The notes under the pieces were generated by a model. The model saw only the letters and a list, made by a program, of their open reading frames with translations, was not told where the DNA came from and ran no database searches. A stretch of 64,000 bases of DNA from the human T2T-CHM13v2.0 reference genome, Homo sapiens. The stretch is from the NCBI RefSeq assembly GCF_009914755.1, contig NC_060927.1, one strand, 5' to 3'. Below are positions 17,031 through 48,273 of the stretch, piece by piece; within the stretch, counting starts at the first letter, position 1; the number at the start of each line of letters is the position of its first letter. The position numbers and the translations under genes are program-made.

Positions 17031-18330
17031 AATAGAATAATATCTCCACCCCTCTCCCCCCCTGGATATTATGATCCACATCACAGGGGCCCAGCGCCCC
17101 CAGCGATGCGGGAAGTAATATCCCACCCCTCTCCCCCCCTGGATATTACGATCCACATCTCAGGGGTGCGGGCGCCCCCGCGATGCGGGGAGTAATATCC
17201 TCACCTCTCTGCTCCCCTGGATGTTGCGGTCCACGGTGGTCACACAGCGTGTTTACCTTATTGGCAGTAATATCTTCTCCTTCTCTGGAAATTACCATCT
17301 ATATCACAGTCGGGGGTACATCCTCTGCACTATTTGCAATAATAGCATCCTCTTCCCCATGGATATTAAGAACAATATTACAGGACTGTTTTTACCCCCA
17401 GCGGCATTGGGTGTAGTATCATCCTCTCCCACGTTGAAATTAGGAACAATATAACTGGGGGCGTGTCCACCCCATGCCATATTGAAAGTAACATCTTCCG
17501 CTTCTCGCCTGGATCATGGGAACAATATGACTGGGGTGGTGTACACTTTCTGCGGTATTGGGAGTAATATCATCCTCTCCGCCTTGGAATATTAGGGACA
17601 ATATCACAGGGGGGCTCTACACACCCGGCGCTATTAAGAAGAATATTGTCCTCTCCCGTCCTGCTTATTAGGAAAAATATCACAGAGTGGGTGTACACCT
17701 CCTGCGATATGGGGGGTAATATCCTCTTCTTCTTCTGGATAGTAGCAACAATATCACACGGGTTTGTACACTTTCTGTGATATTGGGAGTAATATCAACC
17801 TCTCGGCCTTTTTATATTGAGAACAATATCACAGAATGGATGTGCAACCCCTGCGATATTGGGAGTAATATCAGCCTCTCCTCCATGGATATTAGGAATA
17901 ATATCCCAGGGTGGGTGTACACCTCCTGCTGTATGGGGAGTCATATCGTCCTCTCCCTTCCTGGCTATTAGGAACAATATCACAGGGTGGCTGTACACAA
18001 CCTGCGATATTGGGGGTAATATCACCCTCTCCCCGTCCGGATATTAGGAACAATATCACAGAAGTTGTGTACACTTCCTGCGATACTGGGAGTAATAGCA
18101 TTCTCTTCTTCCGTGAATATTAGGAGCAATATCACCGGGTGGATGTACACCCACTGCTATACTGGGAGTAACGTCATACTCCACCCCCTGGATGTTATAT
18201 TCGGATGAATATCACCGCGTAGGTGTACACCTATTGCGATATTGAACGTAATATCATGCTCTCTCCCTCCCTGGACATTAGGAACAATATCACAGGTGGG
18301 TGTACACCCACTGAGGTATTAGACGTAGTA
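17031..18330 (+). repeat. SATR2-type satellite (about 70-bp monomer), CpG-rich variant monomers at 17050-17250
   Basis: gggagtaatatcatcctctccc..ctggatattaggaacaatatcacagggg.gtgtacacc.cctgcgatatt repeats. Confidence 0.85.
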
Positions 18331-18660
18331 TGAGTATTAATTATTACTCATTTATTAACATGAATATGAATTACCAATATTAATATTAAGAAATAACTGC
18401 TAATAAAATTTTTCATATTATTAATATTAATATAAATTATTAGGAGCTAATAGTGTTTTCTAATGATAAGATCAGTATCAGTTATTAATATCAGGTGTTA
18501 TTAATCATTAATATTAATCATTTATTGTTATCATTAGTATAACTATTTAATATTAATTATCATTATCTTTGGTATTGATGTTTAAAATTATATTATCAGT
18601 TATTAATATTGATAATTATTAGTGTCAATTAATAATTGATATTAATTGCGATAAGAAATA
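18331..18660. repeat. AT-rich low-complexity spacer
   Basis: TAATAT/ATTAAT-rich sequence; paralog at 41341-41670. Confidence 0.85.
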
Positions 18661-18749
18661 TTGCGACGTTCCTCACAATATCGCAGAAAATATACACCCC
18701 CCAGTGATGTTCTTCCTGATAGCCAGGGTAGACGGTGACATTACTTCAT

Positions 18750-18925
18750 CCATCACGACCCTTTCACGTGGAACCCCTTAGAGTTTTAAGCCCTTAAAGG
18801 GGCCAGGAACTCTCTTTCTTAGGGTAGCTGGGCTCTTAAGATGGGAGTCTGCCGACGCTCCTCCTGGCCGAATAAAAAACCCTCTTCTTTCTTTAATGGG
18901 CTGTCTGAGAAGTTTTCCTGCTCCA
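18750..18925 (+). mobile_element. LTR2-family (HERV-E) 5' LTR, 5'-truncated (end of U3, R, U5)
   Basis: ccccttagag...gcccttaaaggggccaggaa, AATAAA, ends cctgctcCA followed by tttct and the PBS. Confidence 0.85.
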
Positions 18926-18930
18926 TTTCT

Positions 18931-19005
18931 TGGTTCCCTGACCAGGAATCGAGCATGGGTAGCAGTGGTGAGAGGTCTGAATCCTAACCGATAGACCACC
19001 AGGGG
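18931..19005 (-). tRNA. tRNA-Glu(CTC) pseudogene with encoded CCA, located at the HERV-E primer-binding site
   Basis: Minus strand CCCCTGGTGGTCTATCGGTTAGGATTCAGACCTCTCACCACTGCTACCCATGCTCGATTCCTGGTCAGGGAA-CCA; 58/72 identical by hand to recalled tRNA-Glu-CTC; anticodon at 18970-18972; anticodon and T stems damaged. Confidence 0.9.
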
Positions 19006-22000
19006 AACTTAGAACCTTGTGCGAAATAGATTGCCTACCATTAGAAGTGGGTTGGCCATCAGAAGGAAGCCTGGACAGGTCCCTTGTTTCTAAGGTGTGG
19101 CACAAGGTAACTGGTAAAGGATACCTAGAGCAGTTCCCATACATAGACACTTGGTGACAGCTGGTGCTAGACCCCCCACAGTGGCTAAGAGGGCAGGCAG
19201 CAGCAATACTAGTAGCAAAGGGACAGATAGCTAAGGAACGATCCCGCTCCACCCGCCCAGGGAAATCAACTCCTGAAGTTCTCTTCGACCCAACATCAGA
19301 AGATCCATTGCAGGAGATGGCACCAGACATCCCAGTGGTGCTCTACCCTTACCAGGGCAAGAGGCTCCCCACTCTTGAGCCCACAGTGCTTGCCTCCGCG
19401 AGACAAGCATATCCCTAGGCCCCCCAGAGTAGACAAGAGAGGAGGTGAAGACTCCGGAGAAACCCCTCCCTTGGCAGCTCGTTTACGACCCAAAACGGGG
19501 ATACAAATGCCCCTGAGAGAGCAGCGGTATCCTAGGATAGATGAGATGGTCACGTGGTGGAGAGGCGTGTTTTTGTTTACCAGCCCTTCACCTCTGCCGA
19601 CCTTCTCAACTGGAAAAACAACACCCCGTCCTATACCGAAAAGCCACAAGCTCTAATTGATTTGCTCCAAACTATTATCCAGACCCACAATGCCACCTGG
19701 GCTGATTGCCAGCAGTTGCTCATGTTCCTCTACAGCAGAGATGAAAGGCGGAGAGTGCTCCAAGCAACAACTAAGTGGCTAGAGGAACATGCACCAGCTG
19801 ATTATCAAAACCCCTAAGAGTGTGTAAGGACCCAGTTACCAGGACCCGATCCCCAGTGGTACCCACATGAAAGAGAGGATATGCAAAGGCTAAATCGAGA
19901 CAGGGAAGCTCTCTTGGAAGGATTCAAGAGGGGAGCTCAGAAGGCCACAAACGTTAACAAGGTCTCTGAGGTCATTCAGGGAAAGAAGAAAGTCCAGCAC
20001 AATTCTACCAGAGACTGTGTGAGGCCTATCTTATGTATAATCCCTTTGATCCTGATAGCCCTGAAATCAGCGCATGATTAACATGGCTTTAGTCCATCAA
20101 AGCGCAGAAGACATGAGAAGAAAACTGCAGAAACAGGCTGGGCTTGCAAGGATGAATCCATCACAATTACTAGAAATAGCTAGCCAGGTGTTTGTAAACA
20201 GGGATGCAGTAAGCCCTAAGGAAAACAGCAAAGAGAAGGGAGGTCAGGGCCGGCAAAATACTGACCTGTTAGCTGCAGCAATCACAGGGGACCCCCAAAG
20301 AGGCAAGGGAAGGGGGGCCCTGGGAAAGAAACTCAGCCTGGCTGTCAGAGTTTGCAGTGTAACCAGTGTGCTTATTGTAAAGAAATAGGACAGTGGAAGA
20401 ATAAATGCTCTCAGCTCAAAAGAAAACAAGATGACTCAGAACAGGAGGCCCCGGACAAGGAGGAATGGGCCCTGCTCAACCTGGCAGAAGGGTTATTGGA
20501 CTGAGGGAGAGCGGGCTCAAGCATTCCCAAAGAGCCTCTGGTCAGAATGACAGTCGGGGGTAGAGACATTGATTTTCTTGAAGATAGCGGTGCTGAACAT
20601 TCACTAGTAACTGCCCTGGTCACCCCCTTATCCAAAAAGACTATTGACGCCATCGGAGCCATGAGGGTTTCAGCAAAGCAAGCTTTCTGCTTGTCTCGGA
20701 CTTGTACTGTAGGAGGACATAAAGTCATTCATCAGTTTTGGTACATGCCTGACTGTCCCTTGACCTTTTTGGGAAGGAACTTGCTCAGCAAGCTGAGAGC
20801 CACTATGTCTTTGACAAAGCATGGCTCTTTGCTGCTAAAGTTACCTGGAACGGGAGTCCTTATGACCCTTACAGTCCCCCAAGAGGAGGAATGGAGAATT
20901 TTCTTAACTGAGCCAGGCCAAGAGAGAAGACCAGCTCTGGCTAAGTGGTGGCCAAGAGTATGGGCAGAAGACAACCCTCTGGGATTGGCCAGTTAAGACT
21001 GGGGCCCAGACGGTGAGGCAAAAACAGGACCCAGTCCCCAGAGAAGTTCTTCAAGGTATCCAGGTCTGTCTCAAGCACCTAAGAACTTTTGAAATTATTG
21101 TTCCTTGTTAGTCTCCATGGAACACTCCCCTCCTGCTTGTTCCCAAGCCACGGACCAAGGACTACCGGCCGGTACAGGATTTGCACTTGCTTCATCAAGC
21201 TACACTCACTTTACATCCAACAGTACCTAACCCGTCCACATTGTTGGGGTTGCTGCCAGCTGAGGACAGCTGGTTCACTTGCTTGGACCTGAAAGACGCT
21301 TTCTTTCCTATCAGATTAGCCCCTGAGAGGCAGAAGCTGTTTGCCTTTCAGTGGGAAGATCCGGAGTCAGGTGTCACTACTCAGTACACTTGGACCAGAC
21401 TTCCCCAAGGGTTCAAGAACTCCCCCATCATCTTCGGGGAGGCGTTGGCTCAAGACCTCCAGAAGTTTCCCACCAGAGACGTAGGCTGCGTGTTGCTCCA
21501 GTAGGTTGATGACCTTCTGCTGGGACACCCCACGGCAGTTGGGTGTGCCACGGGAACGGATGCCCCACACCGGCACCTGGAGGACTGTGGGTATAAGGTG
21601 TCCAAGAAGAAAGCTCAGATCTGCCAACAGCAGGTACCTTACTTGGGATTTACTATCTGACAGGGGTTGGAAGGCAGCCCGGGATCAGAAAGAAAGCAGG
21701 TCATTTGCAATCTACCGGAGCCTAAGGCCAGAAGGCAGGTGAGAGAATTCTTAGGAGCTGTGGGGTTTTGCAGACTGTGGATCCCAAACTTTGCAGTATT
21801 AGCCAAGCCTTTGTATGAGGTCACAAAGGGGGCAGGGATCAGGAAGCTTTGGAATGGGGATCCCAACAACAGCAACTCTTTCATGAGTTAAAGGAAAAAC
21901 TTCTGGCAGCCCCAGCCCTGGGTCTACCCGATCTGACAAAGCCTTTTCCATTGTATGCGTCAGAGAGAGAAAAGATGTCAGCTGGACTTTGAACCCAAAC

Positions 22001-23524
22001 TGTGGGGCCCTGGCTGAGACTGGTGGCCTACCTCTCTAAACAACTAGATGGGGTTTCTAAAGGATGGCCCCCCTGTTTGAGGGCCTTGGCAGCAACTGCC
22101 CTGCTAGTACAAGAAGCAAATAAGCTGACTCTTGGGCAAAACCTGAACATAAAGGCCTCCCGTGCTGTGGTGACTTTAATGAATACTAAAGGACATCATT
22201 GGCTAACGGATGCCAGACTCATCAAGTACCAAACTTTGCTCTGTGAGAATCCCCGTATAACCATTGAAGTTTGTAACACCCTACACCCTGCCACCTTGCT
22301 CCCGGTATCAGAGAGCACTGTCGAGCCTGATTGTGTAGAAGTGTTGGATTCAGTTGACTCTAGCAGACCTGACCTCTGGGACCAGCCTTGGGCATCAGGA
22401 GACTGGGAACTATATGTGTATGGGAGCAGCTTCTTCAACCCCCAAGGAGAGAGAGAGGTGCAGGGTATGCAGTGATAACCCTGGACACTGTTGTTGAAGC
22501 CAGATCCTTGCCGCAGGCCTCTGCAGCCCAGAAAGCTGAACTCATTGCTTTCATTCATGCCTTAGAACTCAGTAAGCGTGAGACTGTCAACATTTACACT
22601 GATTCTTGGTATGTCTTTTTAACCCTTCAAGTGCATGGAGCGTGATAGAAAAGGGCCTACTGAACTCTGGGGGAAAAGACAGAAAATATCAACAAGAAAT
22701 CTTGCAATGATTAGAAGCAGTATGGAAACCCCACAAGGTGGCAGTTATGCATTGCAGAGGACACCAGAGAGCTTCCACCTTGCTGGGTTTGGGGAATTCC
22801 CCCGCTGACTCAGAGGCTCAAAAAGCAGCATCTGCCCCCTTCCGGGCATCAGTGCTCCCTCAAGCACCTGATCTTGGACCTACTTCTTCTAAAGAAGAAA
22901 AGGACTTTCTCCAGGTAGAGGGAAGGACAAGTGATCGAGGAAGGATGGATTCGGTTACCAGATGGGAGACTAGCTGTGCCACAGCTGCTAGGAGCTGCAG
23001 TTGTACTGGCTGTGCAAGAAACCACCCATTGAGGTCAGGAGTCACTGGAAAAGTTGTTAGGCTGGTATTTCTACATCTCGCCTCTGTCAGCCCTTGCCAA
23101 AACGGTGAGGCAGCGGTGTGTTACCTGCCGACAGCATGATGCGAGGCAAGGTCCAGCCGTTCCGCCCGGCATACAAGCTTATGGAGCAGCCCCCTTTGAA
23201 GATCTCCAGGTAGACTTCAGAGAGATGCCAAAGTGTGGAGGTAACAAGTATGTACTAGTTCTTGGGCGTACCTACTCTGGGTGGGTGGAGGCCTATCCAA
23301 CACGAACTGAGAAAGCTCGTGAAGTAACCCCTGTCCTTCTTCGAGATCTGATTCGTAGATTTCGACCGCCCTTATGGATCGGCTCAGACAACGGGCCTGC
23401 ATTTTTGGCTGCCTTGGTACAGAAGACGGCAAAGGTATTGGGGATCACACGGAAACTGCATGCCGCCTCCCGGCCTCAGAGTTCTGGAAAGGTGGAGCGG
23501 ATGAATCGGACTATCAAAAATAGT
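19006..23524 (+). mobile_element. HERV-E internal region copy 1: defective gag-pro-pol, truncated in integrase, no env or 3' LTR
   Basis: MA (LRTLCEID..GWPSEGSLD), CA (FTSADLLNWKNN), zinc-knuckle remnant, gag TGA 20502-20504, protease [15 protein letters not shown] with YVDD mutated to *VDD (TAG 21502-21504), RNase H AQKAEL, IN LQVDF/SDNGPAF/GKVERMNRT; Glu PBS. Confidence 0.92.
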
Positions 23525-25545
23525 ACTGTTGTCTTCCCTGCTGGATATTTAAAACAACACCACAAGGGGTGTCAAACCACCTGCTAAATTTGAGGGAATG
23601 TTATCCTCTCCCCACCTCCCCCAGCCCCGGATATTAGAGAAAATAACACAGGGGTGATGTACACCCACTGCTTTATTGGGAGTAGTATCATCCTCTCCCT
23701 TCTTGGATATTAGGAACAATATCACACTGTGCTTGTAGGCCTGTCATGAAATTCAATGGAATGTCATCCTGTGCCTCCCTGGATATGATGAACAATATCA
23801 CGGGGGATGTACAACTTCTGAGATATTGGGAGTGATATCATCTTCTCCCCTCTGGGAGTTAGGGACAATATCACAGGGGTCGTGTACACCCTCTGGGATG
23901 TTGGGACTAATATCATCCTCCCGCCCACTGGATATTAAAAACCATATCACAAGGGGCGTGTGCACACACTTTGATATTGGTATGAATACCATCCTCTCCC
24001 TCTTTGGATATTCGGTGCCATATTTCAGGTGGGGTATACACCACCTGCAATATTGGAAGTAATATGATTTTCTCCCCCACAGATATCAGAAACAATATCA
24101 CAGGGGTGTGTCAACAACCCCTGCGATATTTGGAGTAATATCATCGTCTCCCCTCATGAATATTAAGAACAATATCATAGGGGTGGGGGGTGTACAGCCC
24201 CTTTCATATTTGATATCATCCTCTTCCACCCTGGATATGAGGAACAATATCAGGAAGGGATGTACAGACCCTGCGATATTTGCTGTCATATAATTGTCTC
24301 TCCCGTAGATATTAGGAAAAAAGTCACTGGGGATGTGAACAGCCCTGCGATATTGAGAGTAGTATCATCCTCTCCCCCCTTGTATATTGGGAACAACATC
24401 ACAGGTGGGGTGTACTGCCTCTGCGATATTGGGAGTAAAATTTTCCTCTCTTCCCCTGGACATTAGGAAGAGTATCAGAGGGGGGAGGGTGTACATTCCC
24501 TGCCATATTCAACGTAACCTTATCCTCTCCCTCCCAGGGTATTCAGAACAATATTACAGGAGGGGTGTACACCCTCTGCGATATTGACAGTCATATCATC
24601 CTCTTTCGCTCTGGATATTAGGAACAATATCACAGGGTTGTGTACACCCCCTGCGATATTGGGAGTGATATCATCCTCTCTCCCTGGGTATATTAGGAAG
24701 AGTATCACAGGGCTGTGTAAACCCCCTGCGGTACTGGGAGTAATACCATTCTCTCTCCCTCTGGATATGAGGAAGATTTTCACAGGGAAGTGTACACCCC
24801 CTGCGATATTGGGAGTAATATCATCCTCTCCACCCAGGAAATGACTAACAAGGTCACGGGGGAGTGTACTCCCCCTGCGATATTGGGAGTAATGTCGTCC
24901 TCCCCAAAGCTGGAAGTTAGCAACAAGATCACAGAGGGGTGTACACACCCTGTGACATTGGAAGTAATATGATCCTCTCTCCACCTGGATATTGGGAAAG
25001 ATATTACAGCGCGGGTATACATTTCCTACGCTGTTGGGAGTAATATCATTCTTTTCCTTTCTGGATATTAGGAAGAACATCACAGGGGTGCTGTACAATT
25101 ACTTCGATATTGGGAGTAATATCATGCTCTATTTTCCTGGATATTGCGCACAAAAACACAAAAGGGTGTACAACCCCTGCGATATTGGGAGTAATAGCAT
25201 ACTTTCCTTCCCTGGATGTTAGAAAACAATATCATCAGGGCTGAACACCCCCCGCGATAATGGGAGTCATATTTACTCTTTCACAGGCCATTTGGAACAA
25301 TATCACAGGGGGTGTTTACAAACAGGGGTGGTGTACACCCCCTGTGATATTGGGAGTAACATCATTCTCTCCACCTCCGGATATTAAGAACAGTATCCCG
25401 GCGGGAGGTGGTACACCACCAGTGATATTGGGAATAATGTTATCCTCTCCTTCCCTGGATATTAAGAACAATATCACAGGGGGGTGTACACCTTCTGTGA
25501 TATTGGAAGCAATATCATCCTCTTACCCACTGGATATTAGAAAAA
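23525..25545 (+). repeat. SATR2-type satellite
   Basis: About 70-bp tandem units fused directly to the integrase sequence. Confidence 0.88.
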
Positions 25546-27095
25546 ATATCACTCATGGTGTACACCCACTGTGATATTAGGAAGAATATTACAGGGTGTA
25601 CACCCACTCTGACTTTAGGAGAAATAGCTCCCTAAAATATCACAAATAATATCACAAGGTATACAGTAATATCTCCCTAGGATATGACAAATACTATCAC
25701 AGGGTGTACACCCAGTGTGATAACAGGAGTAATACGTCCCAAGGATACTACCAAGAATATCACAAGGCCGTACACCCACTATGACACAGGGAGTGATATC
25801 TCCCTAGGATATTACGAATAACATCACAGAATGTACACCCACGTGTACCCCCACGTGTGCACTCACGGTGATATTAGGAGTAATATCAACCCAGGACATA
25901 ACCAATAACACCACAGGGAGTACAGACATGATGTACACCCATGGTGGTGTTATGAGAACTATCTCCCTAGGATAATACCAAGAACATCACAGAGTGTACA
26001 CACATGGTATACACCCACTGTGGCACTAGGACTAATAACTTTCTAAGATATTACGAATAGCATCAGAGAATATAAACACATGGTGTACACCTAGTGTATC
26101 TTTAGGCGTAATTTCTCCCTAGGATATTACGCGTAACATCTCAGTGTGTACACACGTGGCGTACACCCACTGTGACATTAAGGGTAATATCCCCCTAGGA
26201 TATGACGAGAAACATCACAGGGTGTCCACCCATGGTGTACACGCACTGTGATGTTAGGAAAAATATCTCCCTAGGATATTATGAATAATACCACAGGGTG
26301 TAGAGAAACTGTAATATTAGAGGTAATGTCTCTCTAGGATATGATGAATAATATCACAGGGCGTACACCCACTGTGATACGGGGAGCAATATCTCTCTAG
26401 GATAGTATGAATAATATCACAGAGTGTACACCCACTGTGATATTAGGAGAAATATCTCTCTGGGATATTATGAATTATATCACAGAGTGTACACACATGG
26501 TGTACATCCACTTTGATATTAGGAATAATATCTTCCTAGGATGTTACAAACAACATCGCACAGGGTACACCCACTGGAATATTAGGAATCGTATCTCCCT
26601 AGGTGATTACAAATAATATCACAGGGTGTACACCCACTGTGATATTAGGAGTAATATCTTCCTAGGGTACTAAGAATAATTTCACAGTGTGTACACACAT
26701 GGTGTACACTCACTGTGATATTAGGAGTAATATCTACCGAGTAGATAACAAATAACATCGCAGGGCGTACACCCACTTTGATATTAGCTGTAATATTTTT
26801 CTAAGTTGTTACAAATAATATCACAGGGTGTACAAACATGGTGTACACTCACTGTGATATCAGGAGTCGTATCTCCGTAATATATTATGAATAATATCAC
26901 AGGGTGTACACCCACTGTATTATTAGGAGTAATATCTCTGTAGGATAGTACAATTAATATCACAGGGTGTGCAGCCACTGTGATATTAGGAGCAACATCT
27001 TTCTAGGATATTACAGACAATATCACAGGGTGTACGCCCACTCTGATGTCAGGAGCAATATCTCCCTAGGATATCGAAAATAATATCACAGGGTG
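25546..27095 (+). repeat. SATR1-type satellite
   Basis: 63/75-bp tandem units. Confidence 0.88.
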
Positions 27096-27962: not shown

Positions 27963-28992
27963 GTGTCCAAGACACACAGAGCCACGGAATCTCACAGGTG
28001 TCTGAGAATTCCTCCTTCTGGGACTCTCAGAGGATCCAGAACTGCAGACCATCCTTGCTGGGCTGTCCCTGTCCATGTATCTGGTCACGGTGCTGAGGAA
28101 CCTGCTCAGCATCCTGGCTGTCAGCTCTGACTCCCACCCCCACACACCCATGTACTTCTTCCTCTCCAACCTGTGCTGGGCTGACATCGGTTTCACCTTG
28201 GCCACGGTTCCCAAGATGATTGTGGACATGGGGTCGCATAGCAGAGTCATCTCTTATGGGGGCTGCCTGACACAGATGTCTTTCTTGGTACTTTTTGCAT
28301 GTATAGTAGACATGTTCCTGACTGTGATGGCTTATGACTGCTTTGTAGCCATCTGTCGCCCTCTGCACTACCCAGTCATCGTGAATCCTCACCTCTGTGT
28401 CTTCTTCGTTTTGGTGTCCTTTTTCCTTAGCCTGTTGGATTCCCAGCTGCACAGTTGGATTGTGTTACAATTCACCTTCTTCAAGAATGTGGAAATCTCT
28501 AATTTTGTCTGTGAGCCATCTCAACTTCTCAAGCTTGCCTCTTATGACAGCGTCATCAATAGCATATTCATATATTTTGATAATACTATGTTTGGTTTTC
28601 TTCCCATTTCAGGGATCCTTTTGTCTTACTATAAAATTGTCCCCTCCATTCTAAGGATTTCATCATCAGATGGGAAGTACAAAGCCTTCTCAGCCTGTGG
28701 CTGTCACCTGGCAGTTGTTTGCTTATTTTATGGAACAGGCATTGGCGTGTACCTGACTTCAGCTGTGGCACCACCCCTCAGGAATGGTATGGTGGCGTCA
28801 GTGATGTACGCTGTGGTCACCCCCATGCTGAACCCTTTCATCTACAGCCTGAGAAACAGGGACATTCAAAGTGCCCTGTGGAGGGTGTGCAGCAGAACAG
28901 TCGAATCTCATGATCTGTTCCATCCTTTTTCTTGTGTGGTTGAGAAAGGGCAACCACATTCAATCCCTACATCTGCAAATCCTGCCCCTTAG
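27963..28992 (+). pseudogene. OR7E130P: OR7E olfactory receptor pseudogene, type A copy 1 (305-aa open frame 28075-28992)
   Basis: [37 protein letters not shown]; OR7E24-like N-terminus EPRNLTGV*EFLLLG with in-frame TGA 28003-28005. Family is secure; symbol is tentative, from recalled cluster order. Confidence 0.9.
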
Positions 28993-40295: not shown

Positions 40296-41340
40296 GGACA
40301 AATCGGAGAGTAATACCACCCCCCGATCCACAGCTGGATGTGACGATCCCCATCGCAGGGCGGCGGCCGCGTCCAGAGACATGGGAAGTAATATCACCCC
40401 ACTCTCTCCCCTGGGATATGACGATCAACATGGAAGGGGGGCGGGCGCCCCCGAGATGCGGGCAGGCTTATCACCACCCCCTCGCCCCTGGATATGACGA
40501 TGGACATCGCAGGGGGGCGAGGCGCCCCCCGCGATGTGGGGAGTCAGAGCCAGCCCCTCTTGCCCCCCTGGCTCTTAGGACCCCCATCGCAGGGGGGCGA
40601 GGCGCCCCCCGCTATGCAGGGAGTCAGAGCCAGCCCCTCTTGCCCCCCTGGCTCTTAGGATCCGCGGTAGACTCACAGCCTGTTTATCATATTGTGAGTA
40701 ATATCATCTCCCCCTCTGGAGATTATGAACCGTTTCACAGACCGGTGTACACCCTTGTGTACAGAGGTTGTACACCCGTCTGTATCGGGAGTCATATCAT
40801 CCTCTTCCTCCCTGAATATTAGGAACAGTATCTCAGGGGGGTTTCTACTCTCTGGGATATCGGGTGTCATGTCCTCCTCTCCCACGTTGCAATTAGAAAC
40901 AATATCATTGGGGGCGTGTCCACCTTCTGTGATTTTGAAAGTAATATTATCCTCTTCCTTCCAGGATCATGGGAAGGATATCCTTGGGGGTGTCCACTTT
41001 CTGCCATACATGTAGTCATAGCACCTCCTCCGCCTTGGAATATTTTTAAGGACCATCTTACACGGGGGTGGACACTTCCTGTGATGTTGGGAGTAATGGC
41101 ATTCTCTTCTTCCGTGACTATTAGGAGCAAATTCACCGGGTGGATGCACATCCAGTGCTATATTGGGAGGAAGGTCATACTCCACCCCCTGGAGATTACT
41201 CGGTGATATTCGGATCAATATCACCGGCTGTGTGTACACCTACTGCGATATTGAACGTAATATCATGCTCTCTCCCTCCCTGGACATTGGGAGCACTATC
41301 ACAGGTGGGTGTACTCCCCCTGAGGTGTTAGGGCGTAATA
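40296..41340 (+). repeat. SATR2-type satellite with CpG-rich variant monomers (40310-40680)
   Basis: catcgcaggggggcgaggcgcccccccgcgatg units followed by canonical SATR2. Confidence 0.85.
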
Positions 41341-41670
41341 TTAGTATGAATTATTCCTCATTTATTATTAACAGGAATATGAATGACCGATATTAATATT
41401 AATATTAAGAAATAATTGCTAATAAAAGTGTCCCATTATTAATATTAATATTAATTATTAGGAGCTAATCTTTACTGTTTTCTAATGAATAAGATCAGTA
41501 TCAGTTATTAATATCAAGTGTCATTAATCATTAATATTAATCATTTATTTTTTCCGTTAGTATAACTATTTAATAGTAATTATTATTATCGTTATTGATT
41601 TTAAAAATTATATTATGGGTTATTAATATTGATAATTATTAGTGTCTATTAATAATTGAGATTATTAATT
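41341..41670. repeat. AT-rich low-complexity spacer, copy 2
   Basis: Paralog of 18331-18660. Confidence 0.85.
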
Positions 41671-41695
41671 GCGGTAAGTCGCCTTGCGCCATTCC

Positions 41696-44600
41696 ACCCC
41701 TCCCTCGGCAGCTCGTTTACGACCCAAAACGGGGACACAAATGCCCCTGAGAGAGCAGCGGTATACTGGGATAGACGAGGATGGTCACGTGGTAGAGAGG
41801 CATGTTTTTGGGTACCAGCACTTCACCTGCGTCGACCTTCTCAACTGGAAAAACAATACACCGCCCTATACCAAAAAGCCACAAGCCCTAATTGATTTGC
41901 TCCAAGCTGTTATCCAGACCCACAACCCCACCTGGGCTGATTGGCACCAGTCGCTCATGTTCCTCTTTAACAGCGAAGAAAGGCGGAGAGTCCTGCAAGC
42001 AGGAACTAAGTGGCTAGAGGAACATGCACCAGCTGATTATCAAAACCCCCAAGAGTATGGAAGGACCCAGTTGCCAGGAACCGACCCCCAGTTGGACCCA
42101 CATGAAAGAGAGGAGTTGCAAAGGCTAAACCGAGACAGGGAAGCTCTCTTGGAAGGATTCAAGAGGGGAGCTCAGAAGGCCACAAACATTAACAAGCTCT
42201 CTGAGGTCATTCAGGGAAAAGAAGAAAGTCCAGCACAATTCTACGAGAGACTGTGTGAGGCCTATCGTATGTATACTCCCTTTGATCCCGATAGCCCTGA
42301 AAATCAGCGCATGATTCACATGGCTTTAGTCCGTCAAAGCGCAGAAGACATGAGAAGAAAACTGCAGAAACAGGCTGGGCTTGCAAGGATGAATCCATCA
42401 CAATTACTAGAAATAGCTAGCCAGATGTTTGTAAACAGGGATGCAGTAAGCCCTAAGGAAAACGGCAAAGAGAATGGAGGTCAGGCCCGGTGACACGCTG
42501 ACCTGTTTGTCAGCTGCAGCAATCAGAGGGGCCCCCCCAAAGAGGCAAGGGAAGGGGGGCCCTGGGAAAGAAACTCAGCTTGGCTGTCAGAGTTTGCAGT
42601 GTAACCAGTGTGCTCATTGTAAAGAAATAGGACAGTGGAAGAACAAATGCCCTCAGCTCAAAAGAAAACAAGGTGACTCAGAGCAGGAGGCCCCGGACAA
42701 GGAGGAAGGGGCCCTGCTCAACCTGGCAGAAGGGTTCTTGGACTGAGGGAGACCGGGCTCAAGCGTACCCAAACAGCCTCTGCTCAGAATGACAGTTGGG
42801 GGTGGAGACATTGACTTTCTTGTAGATAGCGGTGCTGAACATTTGCTAGGAACCGCCCCGGTCGCCCCCTTATCCAAAAAGACTATTGATGTCATCGGAG
42901 CCACAGGGGTTTCAGCAAAGCAAGCTTTCTGCTTGCCTCGGACTTGTACTGTAGGAGGACATAAAGTCATTCATCAGTTTTGGTACATGCCTGACTGTCC
43001 CTTGACCTTTTTGGGAAGGGACTTGCTCAGCAAGCTGAGAACCACTATGTGTTTGACAGACCACGGCTCTTTGCTGCTAAAGTTACCTGGAACAGGAGTC
43101 ATTATGACACTTATGGTCCCCGGAGATGAGGAATGGAGAGTTTTCTTAACTGAGCCAGGCCAAGAGAGAAGACCAGCTCTGGCTAAGCGGTGGCCAAGAG
43201 TACGGGCAGAAGAGAACCCTCCGGGATTGGCCAGTTAAGACTGGGGCCCAGACGGTGAGGCAAAAACAGGACCTGGTCCCCAGAGAAGCCCTTCAAGGTA
43301 TCCAGGTGCGTCTCAAGCACCTAAGAACTTTTGGAATTATTGTTCCTTGTCAGTCTCCATGGAACACTCTCCTCCTGCCTGTTCCCAAGCCACGGACAAA
43401 GGACTACCGGCCGGTACAGGATTTGCCCTTGCTTCATCAAGCTACACTGACTTTACATCCAACAGTACCTAACCCGTCCACATTGTTGGGGTTGCTGCCG
43501 GCTGAGGACAGCTGGTTCACCTGCTTGGACCTGAAAGACGCTTTCTTTCCTATCAGATTAGCCCCTGAGAGGCAGAAGCTGTTTGCCTTTCAGTGGGAAG
43601 ATCCGGAGTCAGGTGTCACTACTCAGTACACTTGGACCGGGCTTCCCCAAGGGTTCAAGAACTCCCCCACCATCTTCGGGGAGGCGTTGGCTCGAGACCC
43701 CCAGAAGTTTCCCACCAGAGACCTAGGCTGCGTGTTGCTCCAGTATGTTGATGACCTTCTGCTGGGACACCCCACGGCAGTCGGGTGTGCCAAGGGAACA
43801 GATGCCCTACACCGGCACCTGGAGGACTGTGGGTAGAAGGTGTCCAAGAAGAAAGCTCAGATCTGCCGACGGCAGGTAAGTTACTTGGGTTTGACTATCC
43901 GACAGGGGTCGGAACGCAGTCCAGGATCAGAAAGAAAGCAGGTCATTTGCAATCTAGCGGAGCCTAAGAGCAGGAGGCAGGTGAGAGAATTCTTAGGAGC
44001 TGTGGGGTTTTGTAGACTGTGGATCCCAAACTTTGCAGTATTAGCCAAGCCTTTGTATGAGGTCACAAAAGGGGCGGGGACCGGGAACCTTTGGAATGTG
44101 GATCCCAACAACAGCAACTCTTTCATGAGTTAAAGGAAAAACTTCTGGCAGCCCCAGCCCTGGGTCTACCCGATCTGACAAAGCCTTTTCCATTGTGTGC
44201 ATCAGAGAGAGAAAAGATGTCAGCTGGACTTTGAACCCAAACTGTGGGGCCCTGGCTGAGACTGGTGGCCTACCTCTCTAAACAACTAGATGGGGTTTCT
44301 AAAGGATGGCCCCCCTGTTTGAGGGCCTTGGCAGCAACTGCCCTGCTAGTACAAGAAGCAAATAAGCTGACTCTTGGGCAAAACCTGAACATAAAGGCCT
44401 CCCGTGCTGTGGTGACTTTAATGAATACTAAAGGACATCATTGGCTAACGGATGCCAGACTCATCAAGTACCAAACTTTGCTCTGTGAGAATCCCCGTAT
44501 AACCATTGAAGTTTGTAACACCCTACACCCCGCCTCCTTGCTCCCGGTATCAGAGAGCACTGTCGAGCCTGATTGTGTAGAAGTGTTGGACTCAGTTGAC

Positions 44601-45769
44601 TCTAGCAGACCTGACCTCCGGGACCAAGCTTGGGCATCAGGAGACTGGAAACTATACGTGTATGGGAGCAGCTTCTTCAACCCCCAAGGAGAGAGAGAGG
44701 TGCAGGGTATGCAGTGATAACCCTGGACACTGTTGTTGAAGCCAGATCCTTGCCCCAGGCCACTTCAGCCCAGAAAGCTGAACTCATTGCTTTCATTCGT
44801 GCCTTAGAACTCAGTGAGGGTGAGACTGTCAACATTTACACTGATTCTTGGTATGTCTTTTCAACCCTTCAAGTGCATGGAGCATGATAGAAAGAAAAGG
44901 GCCTACTGAACTCTGGGGTAAAAGACAGAAAATATCAACAAGAAATCTTGCAATGATTAGAAGCAGTATGGAAACCCCACAAGGTGGCAGTTATGCATTG
45001 CAGAGGACACCAGCGAGCTTCCACCTTGCTGGGTTTGGGGAATTCCCGCGCTGACTCAGAGGCTCAAAAAGCAGCATCTGCCCCCTTCCGGACATCAGTG
45101 CTCCCTCAAGCACCTGATCTTGGACCTACTTCTTCTAAAGAAGAAAAGGACTTTCTCCAGGTAGAGGGAAGGACAAGTGATGGAGGAAGGATGGATTCGG
45201 TTACCAGATGGGAGACTAGCTGTGCCACAGCTGCTAGGAGCTGCAGTTGTACTGGCTGTGTAAGAAACCACCCATTGAGGTCAGGAGTCACTGGAAATTT
45301 GTTAGGCTGGTATTTCTACATCTCGCCTCTGTCAGCCCTTGCCATAACGGTGAGGCAGAGGTGTGTTACCTGCCGACAGGATGATGCGAGGCAAGGTCCA
45401 GCCGTTCCACCCGGCATACGAGCTTATGGAGCAGCCCCCTTTGAAGGTCTCCAGGTGGACTTCAGAGAGATGCCAAAGTGTGGAGGTAACAAGTATGTAC
45501 TAGTTCTTGGGCGTACCTACTCTGGGTGGGTGGAAGCCTATCCAACACGAACTGAGAAAGCTCGTGAAGTAACCCCTGTGCTTCTTCGGGATCTGATTCC
45601 TAGATTTCGACCGCCCTTATGGATCGGCTCAGACAACGGGCCTGCATTTTTGGCTGCCTTGGTACAGAAGACGGCAAAGGTATTGGGGATCACACGGAAA
45701 CTGCATGCCGCCTCCCGGCCTCAGAGTTCCGGAAAGGTGGAGTGGATGAATCGGACTATCAAAAATAGT
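41696..45769 (+). mobile_element. HERV-E internal region copy 2: no LTR, PBS or MA; truncated in integrase
   Basis: Open capsid frame 41684-42493, protease FLVDSGA 42789-43238, RT with YVDD 43255-43836, IN with D-D-E; same IN/SATR2 junction as copy 1. Confidence 0.92.
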
Positions 45770-47790
45770 ACTGTTGTCTTCCCCGCTGGATATTTAAAAC
45801 AACACCACAAGGGGCGTCAAACCACCTGCTAAATTTGAGGGAATGTTATCCTCTCCCCACCTCCCCCAGCCCCGGATATTAGAGACAATAACACAGGGGT
45901 GATGTACACCCACTGCTTTATTGGGAGTAATATCATCCTCTGCCTTCTTGGATATTAGGAACAATATCACACTGTACGTGTACGCCTGTCGCGAAATTCA
46001 ATGGAATGTCATCCTGCGCCTCCCTGGATATGACGAACAATATCACGGGGGATGTACAACTTCTGAGATATTGGGAGTGATATCATCCTCTCCCCTCTGA
46101 AAGTTAGGGACAATATCACAGGGGTCGTGTACACCCTCTGGGATGTTGGGACTAATATCATCCTCCCGCCCACTGGATATTAAAAACCATATCACAAGGG
46201 GCGTGTACACACACTTCGATATTGGTATGAATACCATCCTCTCCCTCTTTGGATATTCGGTGCCATATTTCTGGTGGGGTATACACCACCTGCAATATTG
46301 GAGGTAATATGATTTTCTCCCCCCCTGGATATCACAAACAATATCACAGGGGGTTGTGAACAACCCCTGCGATACTTGGAGCAATATCATCGTCTCCCCT
46401 CACAATTACTAAGAACAATATGGTAGGGATGGGGGATGCACACCCCTTTTCATATTTGATATCATCCTCTTCCCCCCTGGATATTAGGAGCAATATCAGG
46501 AAGGAATGTACAGACCCTGCGACCTTTGCTGTCATATAATTGTCTCTTCCCTAGATATTAGGAAAAAATGTCACTGGGGATGTGAACAGCCCTGCGATAT
46601 TGAGAGTAGTATCATCCTCTCCCCCCTTGTATATTGGGAACAACATCACAGGTAGGGTGTACTGCCTCTGTGATATTGGGAGTGAAATTTTCCTCTCTTC
46701 CCCTGGACATTAGGAAGGGTATCAGAGGGGGAGGGTGTACATTCCCTGCGATATTCAACGTAACCTTATCCTCTGCCTCCCAGGGTATTCAGAACAATAT
46801 TACAGGAGGGGTGTACACCCTCTGCGATATTGAGAGTCATGTCATCCTCTTTCGCTCTGGATATTAGGAACAATATCACAGGGTTGTGTACACTCCCTGC
46901 GATATTGGGAGTCGTATCATGCTCTCTCCCTGTGGATATTAGGAAGAGTATCACAGGGCTGTGTAAACCCCTTGCGGTACTGGGAGTAATACCATCCTCT
47001 CTCCCTCTGGAAATAGGAAGATTTTCACAGGGGCGTGTACACCCCCTGCAATATTGGGAGTGAGATCATCCTGTCCACCCAGGAAATGACTAACATGGTC
47101 ACGGGGAAGTGTACTCCCCCTGCGATATTGGGAGTAATGTCGTCCTCCCCAAACCTGGATGTTAGCAACGAGATCACAGAGGGGGTGTACACACCCTGCG
47201 ACATTGGAAGTAATATGATCCTCTCCCCACCTGGATACTGGGAAAGATACCACAGCGCGGGCAAACCTTTCCTACGCTGTTGGGAGTAATATCATTCTTT
47301 TCCTTTCTGGATATTAGGAAGAATATCACGGGGTGCTGTACAATTACTTTGATATTGGCAGTAATATCATGCTCTATTTTCCTGGATATTGCGCACAAAA
47401 ACACAAAAGGGTGTACAACCCGAGCGATATTGGGAGTAGTAGCATACTCTCCTTCCCTGGATGTCAGAAAACAATATCATCAGGGCTGAACACCCCCCAC
47501 GATAATGGGAGTCATGTTTACTCTTTCACAGGCCATTTGGATTAATATCACAGGGGGTGTTTACAAACAGGGGTGGTGTACACCCCCTGTGATATTGGGA
47601 GTAACATCATTCTCTCCACCTCCGGATATTAAGAACAATATCCCGGCGGGAGGTGGTACACCCCCAGTGATATTGCGAATAATGTCATCCTCTCCTTCCC
47701 TGGATATTAGGAACAATATCACAGGGGGGTGTACACCTTCTGTGATATTGGAAGCAATATCATCCTCTCCCCCGCTGGATATTAGAAAAA
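45770..47790 (+). repeat. SATR2-type satellite
   Basis: Colinear paralog of 23525-25545. Confidence 0.88.
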
Positions 47791-48273
47791 AATATCACTC
47801 ACGCTGTACACCCACTGTAATATGAGGAGTAATATCTTCCTAGGGTACTACGAATAATTTCACAGTCTGTACACACATGGTGTACACTCACTGTGATATT
47901 AGGAGTAATATCTACCTAGTAGATAACAAATAACCTCGCAGGGTGTACACCCACTTTGACATTAGCTGTAATATTTTTCTAAGTTGTTACAAATAAGATC
48001 ACAGGGTGTACAAACATGGTTTACATTCACTGTGATATCAGGAGTCGTATCTCTGTAATATATTATGAATAATATCACAGGGTGTACACCCACTGTATTA
48101 TTAGAAGTAATATCTCTGTAGGATATTACAATTAAGATCACAGGGTGTAGAGCCACGGTGATATTAGGAGCAATATTTTTCTAGGATATTACAAATAATA
48201 TCACAGAGTGTATGCCCACTCTGCTGTCAGGAGGAATATCTCCCTAGGATATCAAAAATCCTATCACAGGGTG
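47791..48273 (+). repeat. SATR1-type satellite (shortened)
   Basis: Paralog of 25546-27095 lacking about 1.07 kb. Confidence 0.85.

What the first reader, a model, noticed from the sequence alone, without database searches (positions are those of the whole stretch)
18926..19040. Whole primer tRNA-Glu copied into a HERV-E provirus at its PBS and fused into gag
Seen: after the LTR end (CA 18925) and TTTCT, the PBS TGGTTCCCTGACC... does not stop at 18 nt. It continues as the antisense of the full 72-nt tRNA-Glu(CTC) plus CCA, then runs straight into MA codons (CCA GGG GAA CTT AGA ACC = P-G-E-L-R-T-L-C-E-I-D), with the leader and gag start missing. Known: CCA is added post-transcriptionally, and plus-strand strong-stop DNA normally halts at m1A58. 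Inference: RT read through the whole primer, and the second strand transfer landed in gag using ACCAGGGA microhomology between the tRNA end and the recalled gag T-P-G-K codons. This would be a fossil aberrant strand transfer that created a tRNA pseudogene, later spread by duplication.
Basis: partly seen in the sequence, partly recalled or inferred. Interest (0 to 1): 0.8.

Follow-up and report, generated by a model that had tools for sequence, protein, structure and literature searches.

The report
Whole primer tRNA fossilised in HERV-E
An ancient human endogenous retrovirus carries a backwards copy of the entire tRNA that primed its reverse transcription, joined straight to its gag gene: a germline fossil of a copying error so far reported mainly from defective HIV-1 proviruses, later multiplied by segmental duplication.

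Summary
Window 18931-19005 is TGG followed by an ungapped antisense copy of all 72 nt of tRNA-Glu(CTC). It is in register with the HERV-E primer binding site (PBS): 17/18 PBS positions match, and 44/57 positions beyond it. Ten ordinary HERV-E copies match only 14-20/57 beyond the PBS.

The copy runs directly into gag codon 31. About 613 nt are missing, namely the leader and the first 30 gag codons. The join lies on a 9-nt identity (CACCAGGGA) between the far end of the tRNA copy and gag.

Ten loci in this genome (chr 2, 3, 8, 13) share the exact junction, the same truncated LTR and the same flanking 75-77-bp satellite. Their gag sequences form one well-supported clade. This points to one event, spread by segmental duplication. 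The setting fits the published inactive "SATR-HERVE-SATR" arm of the OR7E-bearing Xiao/DA duplicons.

Plus-strand strong-stop synthesis read through the whole primer, and the second strand transfer landed in gag by microhomology. The same mechanism was described in 2025 for HIV-1 proviruses with tRNA-Lys3 inserts of 7-54 nt. This is therefore a new member of a known kind, not a new mechanism.

Two small TSD-flanked retrocopies of the U5-PBS-tRNA module were found elsewhere in the genome.

The parts
17038..18308 (.). Upstream satellite array (75-77-bp period), followed by AT-rich and inverted satellite-like sequence up to 18747. It forms the left 'SATR' arm.
   Evidence: TRF. It is homologous at about 72% to the array at 23625-25583. 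All 8 paralogs examined have the same satellite upstream.
18748..18925 (+). Truncated HERV-E 5' LTR: the 3' part of U3, then R with AATAAA at 18871-18876, then U5 ending in CA. The window copy has lost more than its paralogs.
   Evidence: BLAST to a canonical LTR covers only positions 337-498 of a 520-nt query here, against 164-520 in 8 paralogs. LTR ends were compared.
18926..18930 (+). TTTCT spacer between U5 and the PBS. It is normal for HERV-E.
   Evidence: The same spacer is present in the ordinary copies printed.
18931..18948 (+). Primer binding site, complementary to tRNA-Glu(CTC) nt 59-72 plus CCA (18 nt).
   Evidence: 17/18 matches.
18949..19005 (-). Read-through copy of the rest of the primer (the remaining 57 nt, from the base that pairs with A58 back to tRNA nt 1). 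The tRNA sense strand is the window's minus strand. It is a decayed tRNA pseudogene.
   Evidence: 44/57 matches, ungapped. The anticodon complement GAG is kept. ARAGORN and Rfam are negative.
18997..19005 (+). Junction or microhomology zone. It reads CACCAGGGG here. The tRNA end and ordinary gag both read CACCAGGGA.
   Evidence: Homology to ordinary gag begins at 18997.
19006..23587 (+). HERV-E gag (from codon ~34), pro and pol as far as the integrase core. It carries many stops and frameshifts. It breaks off before env and the 3' LTR.
   Evidence: Pfam hits: Gag_p30 (19545-20081), RVP (20505-20996), RVT_1 (21112-21504), RNase H (21993-22645), rve (23033-23587). There is 90% identity to ordinary locus L061 across 18997-22555.
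23625..25583 (.). Downstream satellite array (75-78-bp period). It forms the right 'SATR' arm.
   Evidence: TRF and self-BLAST.
27986..28948 (+). OR7E130P, the olfactory-receptor pseudogene of the duplicon core, 9 kb downstream.
   Evidence: Hub annotation. OR7E copies lie within 17 kb of 7 of the 10 junction loci (only 40 of 192 candidates were scored).
41068..47835 (+). Second copy of the same satellite/HERV-E unit inside the window. It lacks the equivalent of 18656-19461, so it has no LTR, no tRNA and no junction.
   Evidence: Self-BLAST gives 86% for 18067-18655 against 41068-41678, and 94.7% for 19462-25589 against 41696-47835. It falls inside the junction clade in the gag tree.

Best explanation
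This is a dead-on-arrival HERV-E provirus made by a faulty reverse transcription.

Shown:
- The DNA reads U5, TTTCT, PBS, the complement of the entire primer tRNA-Glu(CTC) including CCA, then gag from codon 31.
- The leader and the first 30 gag codons (about 613 nt) are absent.
- The join lies on a 9-nt identity between the complement of the tRNA 5' end and gag.

Inferred:
- Plus-strand strong-stop DNA did not halt at tRNA position 58. It copied the primer to its 5' end.
- Its 3' end could no longer pair at the PBS. It paired instead with the minus strand at CACCAGGGA in gag. Equivalently, the growing minus strand jumped from gag onto this 3' end.
- This skipped the leader, including the expected packaging and splice-donor region, and the gag start.
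- Nine of 10 copies keep T opposite A58. This fits a primer molecule that lacked m1A58.
- All 10 copies have G instead of A opposite tRNA U1. This fits a G:U misincorporation at the transfer point, or an early substitution.

The provirus sat in, or became flanked by, a 75-77-bp satellite and lost its U3 start, env and 3' LTR. It was then copied as passive cargo of an OR7E-bearing segmental duplication to at least 10 places on chromosomes 2, 3, 8 and 13. It has no present function. The tRNA copy is a decayed pseudogene.
For: - tRNA identity and register.
- Ordinary HERV-E lacks the insert: 10 of 10 copies score 14-20/57 beyond the PBS.
- Size and content of the deletion.
- Microhomology is present in 14 of 21 ordinary copies and unique within a 10-kb ordinary locus.
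- There are exactly 10 junction matches genome-wide at up to 3 mismatches. The reversed-pattern control gave 0 forward and 1 reverse.
- The paralogs share one LTR truncation point (8 of 8) and the upstream satellite.
- All 9 junction copies entered, plus window unit 2, form one clade with support 99/93. The sister copies are the ordinary L010, L012 and L021.
- Mechanistic precedent: 44 defective HIV-1 proviruses carry tRNA-Lys3 inserts of 7-54 nt at the deletion junction, explained as deferred second-strand transfer (PMC12657518, passages read).
- m1A58 and m5Um54 act as plus-strand stops, and read-through follows when they are lost (PMC8599865, passages read).
Against: - The mechanism is read from one fossil product. 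No intermediate can be observed.
- The junction is not a perfect splice of the two parents: GGGG against GGGA in both. One extra change must be assumed.
- Both ends of the provirus are missing, so normal integrase-mediated integration (a 4-bp duplication) cannot be checked.
- I could not see Ji & Zhao 2008 or Newman & Trask 2003, nor Dfam, RepeatMasker or GtRNAdb. Any of these may already annotate the tRNA piece.
- A different HERV-E subgroup (5 of 21 copies) reads GGGGAACTT after an 18-nt deletion. If the parent had been of that type, the microhomology would be only about 3 nt. The tree places that subgroup far from the junction clade.
Confidence: 0.85

Rival explanations
1. The tRNA-gag arrangement arose in an earlier replication cycle. 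It was carried by a replicating or trans-complemented HERV-E variant, and this locus is one ordinary integration of that variant.
For: Two small fragments elsewhere (L062 and L085) also carry U5-PBS-tRNA in register. So nucleic acids with this join existed more than once.
Against: All 10 junction copies share flanks and the same LTR truncation and form one clade. No junction copy has independent flanks. The missing leader would be expected to hold the packaging signal; that is established gammaretrovirus biology and was not tested here. L085 shares a derived U5 change with paralogs L006 and L008, and L062 shares the junction family's GCTCCA LTR end. Both therefore look like descendants of the genomic copies.
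Confidence: 0.06
2. A DNA-level event occurred after integration. Gene conversion or ectopic recombination between the proviral PBS and a chromosomal tRNA-Glu gene replaced the leader.
For: The PBS (15 nt of tRNA body) and the 9-nt gag identity could in principle serve as two short crossover points.
Against: It needs two crossovers on 15 and 9 nt with a 72-nt gene in trans, replacing 613 nt by 48 nt. No flanking sequence of a tRNA gene was carried along. The product is exactly what RT read-through predicts, and that route is documented for HIV-1.
Confidence: 0.04
3. A mature tRNA-Glu was inserted independently at the PBS by LINE-1 machinery, and the leader was then deleted in an unrelated event.
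For: tRNA retropseudogenes with CCA exist. Two L1-like or TSD-flanked fragments of this module were found.
Against: The window copy and its 9 paralogs have no TSD and no A-tail. The CCA and 15 nt of the tRNA are the provirus's own PBS, so an inserted tRNA would have to land in perfect register and in antisense orientation. The far end coincides with a 9-nt identity to gag.
Confidence: 0.02

Closest known systems
Defective HIV-1 proviruses with tRNA-Lys3 inserts ('deferred/aberrant second-strand transfer'), Commun Biol 2025, PMC12657518 (passages read)
   Same: U5 and the PBS are followed, in register, by more of the primer tRNA's complement. The insert marks the 5' edge of an internal deletion. 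The LTR upstream of the PBS is kept. Both are explained by read-through of the m1A58 stop followed by transfer to a downstream minus-strand site.
   Different: That case is a lentivirus with tRNA-Lys3, in somatic cells of living patients, with inserts of 7-54 nt. This one is a gammaretrovirus-like HERV-E with tRNA-Glu(CTC), and the full 57 nt down to tRNA nt 1. It was fixed in the germline, has a clear 9-nt microhomology at the acceptor, and was later amplified about 10-fold by segmental duplication.
'SES' (SATR-HERVE-SATR) flanking element of the Xiao/DA OR7E duplicons (Ji & Zhao 2008, not held; Ji et al. 2009, PMC2700803, passages read)
   Same: An inactive 'modified HERV-E' lies between two satellite blocks, next to an OR7E core. 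It is spread over many loci, including 8p at 7-8 and 11-12 Mb. It is reported to have arisen 25-18 Myr ago in apes.
   Different: PMC2700803 contains the word tRNA 0 times. Whether the 2008 paper says what the 'modification' is could not be checked. The equation of this locus with SES rests on matching architecture, not on their coordinates.
Cloned circular retroviral DNAs and Ty1 products carrying primer tRNA sequence between or next to LTRs (recalled from the 1980s-90s literature; no call)
   Same: RT copies beyond the first 18 nt of the primer when the stop fails.
   Different: Those are unintegrated or experimental products. This one is integrated, inherited and joined to gag.
Okada-type model for tRNA-derived SINEs originating from retroviral strong-stop DNA with its primer tRNA (recalled; one search returned no paper containing the phrase 'strong-stop DNA', count 0 in all 15 listed)
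   Same: The module is tRNA + CCA + complement of U5. Two short TSD-flanked copies of that module (L062, L085) exist outside the duplicon.
   Different: Only two copies exist, with no sign of further amplification. L085 is in provirus-sense orientation with an A-tail, so it is not a Pol III tRNA-sense SINE.

Membership tests
tRNA read-through / deferred plus-strand-transfer defective provirus | The PBS is complementary to the 3' 18 nt (with CCA) of a host tRNA. | tested here: met
   17/18 against tRNA-Glu(CTC)+CCA.
tRNA read-through / deferred plus-strand-transfer defective provirus | Complementarity continues in register past tRNA position 58. | tested here: met
   44/57 ungapped in the window and 47-50/57 in paralogs, against 14-20/57 in 10 ordinary copies.
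tRNA read-through / deferred plus-strand-transfer defective provirus | The insert sits at the 5' edge of an internal deletion that starts at the PBS. | tested here: met
   613 nt (607 in L012) between the PBS end and the landing site are absent.
tRNA read-through / deferred plus-strand-transfer defective provirus | Sequence identity exists between the donor 3' end and the acceptor site. | tested here: met
   CACCAGGGA is shared by the tRNA end and gag in 14 of 21 ordinary copies. It occurs once in 10 kb. The junction itself has one mismatch at the last base in 10 of 10 copies.
tRNA read-through / deferred plus-strand-transfer defective provirus | It was produced by RT during one infection cycle, with an m1A58-less primer. 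| not testable with these tools
   Only the product survives. T opposite A58 in 9 of 10 copies is compatible with this.
HERV-E (ERV1) provirus | An LTR of the HERV-E type, a Glu PBS, and gammaretrovirus-type gag-pro-pol. | tested here: met
The LTR part of paralog L002 is 82-88% identical to LTRs of ordinary proviruses. Pfam finds Gag_p30, RVP, RVT_1, RNase H and rve. Identity to ordinary copies across gag-pol is 90-92%.
Functional tRNA gene | A cloverleaf detectable by tRNA finders. | tested here: not met
   ARAGORN finds 0 genes and Rfam finds 0 matches at E<=10 in the window. Only 1 of the 8 paralogs scanned (L003) is still called.
LINE-1-mediated tRNA retropseudogene | Target-site duplication and an A-rich 3' end bounding the tRNA. 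| tested here: not met
   Neither is present in the window or the 9 paralogs. Both are present only in the separate fragments L062 and L085.
SES arm of Xiao/DA duplicons | A satellite - inactive HERV-E - satellite unit beside an OR7E core, at many loci. | tested here: met
   Satellite arrays lie on both sides, OR7E lies 9 kb downstream, and OR7E is near 7 of 10 loci. The SATR1/2 names are taken from PMC2700803 and were not tested against a repeat library.

The most novel reading that the evidence does not exclude
This would be the first recognised germline fossil of a complete primer-tRNA read-through. It would also record more than the error itself.
- The faithful T opposite A58, and the absence of any shared misincorporation in the founder except opposite U1, would mean a hypomodified tRNA-Glu primed a germline HERV-E infection more than 20 Myr ago.
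- The resulting 'tRNA + CCA + U5' module was then transcribed and retro-copied at least twice (L062 and L085).
- That would be a natural, datable example of the long-proposed route from retroviral strong-stop products to tRNA-derived retroposons.
Probability: 0.2. Interest if true: 0.7.

Novelty: new member of a known kind. Interest (0 to 1): 0.5.

Why it matters
It shows that the read-through and aberrant second-transfer error documented in HIV-1 reservoirs also happened in an ancient gammaretrovirus-like infection of the primate germline. That product was inherited.

The fossil gives an unusually clean product: a full-length tRNA and a 9-nt acceptor microhomology. It explains what is 'modified' about the HERV-E arm of a major family of human segmental duplications (OR7E, 8p23.1 and others). 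It also accounts for about ten tRNA-Glu pseudogene fragments, which tRNA and repeat annotation may report without context.

It suggests a simple genome-wide screen: a PBS match longer than 18 nt next to a 5' internal deletion. That screen could measure how often this error reached the germline. Large HERV surveys have compared only the 18-nt PBS (PMC4724089, passages read).

Tried and rejected
- ARAGORN and Rfam on the window copy found nothing. The identification therefore rests on alignment to tRNA genes fetched from the same genome.
- I considered that the junction's GGGG came from the HERV-E subgroup reading GGGGAACTT after an 18-nt deletion (5 of 21 copies). I rejected this because that subgroup sits in a distant, well-supported clade.
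- I considered that the junction copies spread by retrotransposition. I rejected this because of the shared truncation and shared satellite flanks.
- At first the window's gag seemed closer to ordinary copies (95% over 304 nt) than to its paralogs. Over 1.15 kb the identities are similar (88-94%), and the tree resolves a single clade.
- The 85-nt AT-rich segment in L085 matched nothing specific among the sequences held, so its origin is open.
- For L062 I could not decide between a retrocopy of a tRNA-sense transcript of a junction locus and capture of an RT intermediate. Its target site is not a typical L1 endonuclease site.
- Literature searches for a prior description are listed in the full report. 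None turned up a description of a tRNA copy in HERV-E or in the OR7E duplicons.
- PMC3092482 and PMC430936 are not held.
- No supplementary files were opened.
Full report
**1. What is in the sequence**

Read directly, the HERV-E LTR ends with CA at 18924-18925. TTTCT follows at 18926-18930, then TGG at 18931-18933, then 72 nt at 18934-19005.

I did not rely on memory for the tRNA. I searched the window's own genome (the T2T human assembly, held as G000) with the reverse complement of 18926-19006. Of 45 candidates, 40 were scored. Many hits covered query positions 3-73 only. ARAGORN calls tRNA-Glu(ctc) genes in 6 of the 8 loci I passed to it. The other two, L034 and L056, are not genes (see sections 3 and 7).

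The antisense strand of one such gene (L039:1501-1572) aligns to window 18934-19004 without a gap. Counting TGG as the complement of CCA, the window matches the PBS part at 17/18 and the 57 nt beyond it at 44/57. The binomial P for 44/57 at p=0.25 is 2e-16.

Of the window's 14 mismatches, 9 are transitions and 5 are CpG-type decay. The anticodon complement GAG is intact. ARAGORN and Rfam at E<=10 find no tRNA in the window copy. It is a decayed pseudogene.

**2. The ordinary element does not have it**

Ten ordinary HERV-E copies with LTR, PBS and leader have 16-18/18 in the PBS but only 14-20/57 beyond it. They share the TTTCT spacer.

In the ordinary copy L010 the PBS is at 870-887, the gag ATG at 1410, and the point where homology to the window resumes at 1501. 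So 613 nt are missing from the window copy: 522 nt of leader plus 30 gag codons. The figure for L012 is 607 nt.

**3. The junction**

The complement of the tRNA 5' end and ordinary gag both read CACCAGGGA. Of 21 ordinary copies, 14 have it exactly, 2 have 1-2 substitutions, and 5 belong to a subgroup with an 18-nt deletion there. The 9-mer occurs once in the 10-kb ordinary locus L061, at the landing site.

The window and all its paralogs read CACCAGGGG. The base opposite tRNA U1 is therefore G in 10 of 10 copies.

No A-run or direct repeat bounds the tRNA part.

**4. One event, then duplication**

A search with 18850-19200 scored 40 of 380 candidates. Nine loci including the window covered LTR, tRNA and gag. 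The other 31 began at query positions 145-153, that is at the landing site.

A pattern search for the junction at up to 3 mismatches found exactly 10 places:
- chr3 (the window)
- chr2 at 71.06, 96.06, 159.34 and 205.84 Mb
- chr8 at 6.82, 7.80, 7.83 and 12.98 Mb
- chr13 at 40.68 Mb

The reversed-pattern control gave 0 forward and 1 reverse hit. The chr2 205.84 Mb copy (L034) is interrupted right after the junction by Alu-like sequence; I recognised that by eye in the alignment and did not test it.

All 8 paralogs examined have the same satellite upstream. Their LTRs start at the same point, position ~164 of a 520-nt canonical query. The window copy has lost a further stretch, so its LTR begins at 18748.

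The 10 copies match tRNA+CCA at 61-68/75. At 72 of 75 positions at least 6 of 10 agree with the gene. The exceptions are two positions that differ between subgroups, and the last base. T opposite A58 is kept in 9 of 10.

An ML tree of 1158 gag columns from 31 rows was built from 29 further loci, the window copy and window unit 2. L034 was not included because it lacks gag. The tree puts all 9 junction copies entered, plus the window's second unit, in one clade (ultrafast bootstrap 99, SH-aLRT 93). That clade falls among the ordinary copies L010, L012 and L021, in a fork that is drawn open. Root-to-tip depth within the clade is about 0.04-0.07 substitutions per site. That means tens of millions of years. 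I give no finer date, because it depends on the rate assumed.

**5. Setting**

Pfam finds the following:
- Gag_p30: 19545-20081
- protease (RVP): 20505-20996
- RT (RVT_1): 21112-21504
- RNase H: 21993-22645
- integrase core (rve): 23033-23587

The provirus then breaks off. Arrays of a 75-77-bp satellite lie on both sides, at 17038-18308 and 23625-25583. OR7E130P lies 9 kb downstream.

OR7E copies lie within 17 kb of 7 of the 10 junction loci. Only 40 of 192 candidates were scored, so the three misses are uninformative.

The window holds a second unit (41068-47835) that lacks the equivalent of 18656-19461, and hence lacks the junction.

[quoted passage not shown] Those are reported to have arisen 25-18 Myr ago (PMC2700803, passages read). 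That paper never mentions tRNA (0 occurrences). The founding 2008 paper and Newman & Trask 2003 are not held.

**6. Mechanism**

The product is what is expected if plus-strand strong-stop synthesis ignored the stop at tRNA position 58 and ran to the primer's 5' end. The 3' end would then pair with the minus strand at the 9-nt identity in gag. Equivalently, the nascent minus strand switched from gag to that end. These steps are inferred.

The same scheme was proposed for defective HIV-1 proviruses. One newly sequenced provirus and 43 GenBank sequences had tRNA-Lys3 inserts of 7-54 nt defining the deletion junction (PMC12657518, passages read). m1A58 and m5Um54 are the experimentally supported stops (PMC8599865, passages read). 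Older reports of tRNA sequence in cloned circular retroviral DNA and in Ty1 are recalled, not seen.

The G opposite U1 may be a G:U misincorporation at the transfer point. The stem branch of the clade is only 0.0067 per site, so a later substitution at exactly that base is less likely, though not excluded.

**7. Side findings bearing on the reading**

Two short insertions elsewhere carry the same U5-PBS-tRNA continuity but not the gag junction.

L062 (chr2 11.58 Mb):
- An 11-bp direct repeat flanks 101 bp.
- The insert holds tRNA nt ~8-72, CCA, AGAA and 34 nt of U5 complement ending in A5.
- Rfam scores the tRNA part at 29.8 bits against a gathering score of 29.
- Its LTR end reads GCTCCA. Six of the 10 junction copies read the same. 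All 14 ordinary or solo LTR ends printed read TACA.

L085 (chr3 106.88 Mb):
- A 12-bp direct repeat beginning with A6 lies at a TT|AAAAAA site and flanks 204 bp.
- The insert holds 58 nt of U5, TTTCT, the PBS, the tRNA complement down to nt 16, 85 nt of unassigned AT-rich sequence, and an A-run.
- It shares a derived U5 change with paralogs L006 and L008.

Both look like retro-copies descended from the genomic junction copies. L085 fits a LINE-1-type insertion. L062 is unresolved.

In the PBS-region pattern search, 7 of 19 hits continue into the tRNA. All 7 are junction-family loci or these two fragments. The other 12 are ordinary PBS-leader sequences. No independent partial read-through in another HERV-E copy was seen at that sensitivity.

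**8. Novelty**

These searches of the held library found no description of a primer-tRNA copy in HERV-E, in OR7E duplicons or in any ERV:
- HERV-E, tRNA, strong-stop, read-through
- endogenous retrovirus, PBS, entire tRNA, tRNA pseudogene, plus-strand strong-stop
- OR7E + HERV-E (0 papers)
- aberrant second strand transfer in ERVs
- strong-stop DNA and SINE origin
- HERVE_a
- 7E olfactory receptor, segmental duplication, retrovir
- SATR1, SATR2, HERV-E, tRNA-Glu

The large HERV survey PMC4724089 compared 18-nt PBS motifs only (passages read). Subscription papers, repeat libraries and supplements were not available.

The mechanism is known. The instance appears unreported: germline, full-length, with its microhomology preserved, and amplified within a major duplicon family.

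**Verdict:** It is a new member of a known kind, of moderate interest.

Noticed in passing
L062:1653-1775 (G000 C2:11584652-11584774): A 101-bp insertion flanked by an 11-bp direct repeat. It holds tRNA-Glu(CTC) nt ~8-72, CCA, AGAA and 34 nt of HERV-E U5 complement ending in A5. Its LTR end carries the junction family's GCTCCA variant. It is either a retrocopy of a tRNA-sense transcript of a junction locus or a captured RT intermediate. Its target site is not a typical L1 site.
   Followed up: partly
L085:212-439 (G000 C3:106879111-106879338): A 204-bp insertion with a 12-bp direct repeat at a TT|AAAAAA site. It holds 58 nt of U5, TTTCT, the PBS, the tRNA complement down to nt 16, 85 nt of unassigned AT-rich sequence and an A-run. 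It shares a derived U5 change with paralogs L006 and L008. It looks like a LINE-1-mediated, possibly chimeric, retrocopy of a sense transcript from a junction locus, which would imply the truncated LTR was once transcribed.
   Followed up: partly
L021 reverse strand, about 675-900 (G000 C8 near 10.494 Mb): An ordinary HERV-E 5' LTR end shows a 75-bp unit repeated three times in tandem. The unit runs from just after the AATAAA, through U5 and TTTCT, to the first 5 nt of the PBS (echoed by two 63-nt extra hits). It may be another strand-transfer or slippage scar at the U5/PBS border.
   Followed up: no
L004:2824-3350 and L019 (G000 C8:7.827-7.830 Mb): On 8p, one junction copy is followed about 1.5 kb after the junction by a second HERV-E LTR with a normal PBS, leader and gag. 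Near-identical ordinary copies (L017, L018, L020, L023) recur at 8p 7.48, 11.57, 12.24 and 12.76 Mb. So a later HERV-E was inserted into, or recombined with, the old arm and was then duplicated.
   Followed up: no
window 41068-47835 versus 18067-25589: The window's second satellite/HERV-E unit lacks exactly the LTR-tRNA-gag start (equivalent of 18656-19461). Paralogs L003 and L006 lose homology at 19445-19452. This suggests a recurrent breakpoint near 19450.
   Followed up: no
L016, L025, L026, L027, L030 (G000 C11, C3, C12): A tight HERV-E subgroup (clade support 100/99) has an in-frame 18-nt deletion in matrix, just upstream of the landing site. It removes the CACCAGGGA word.
   Followed up: no
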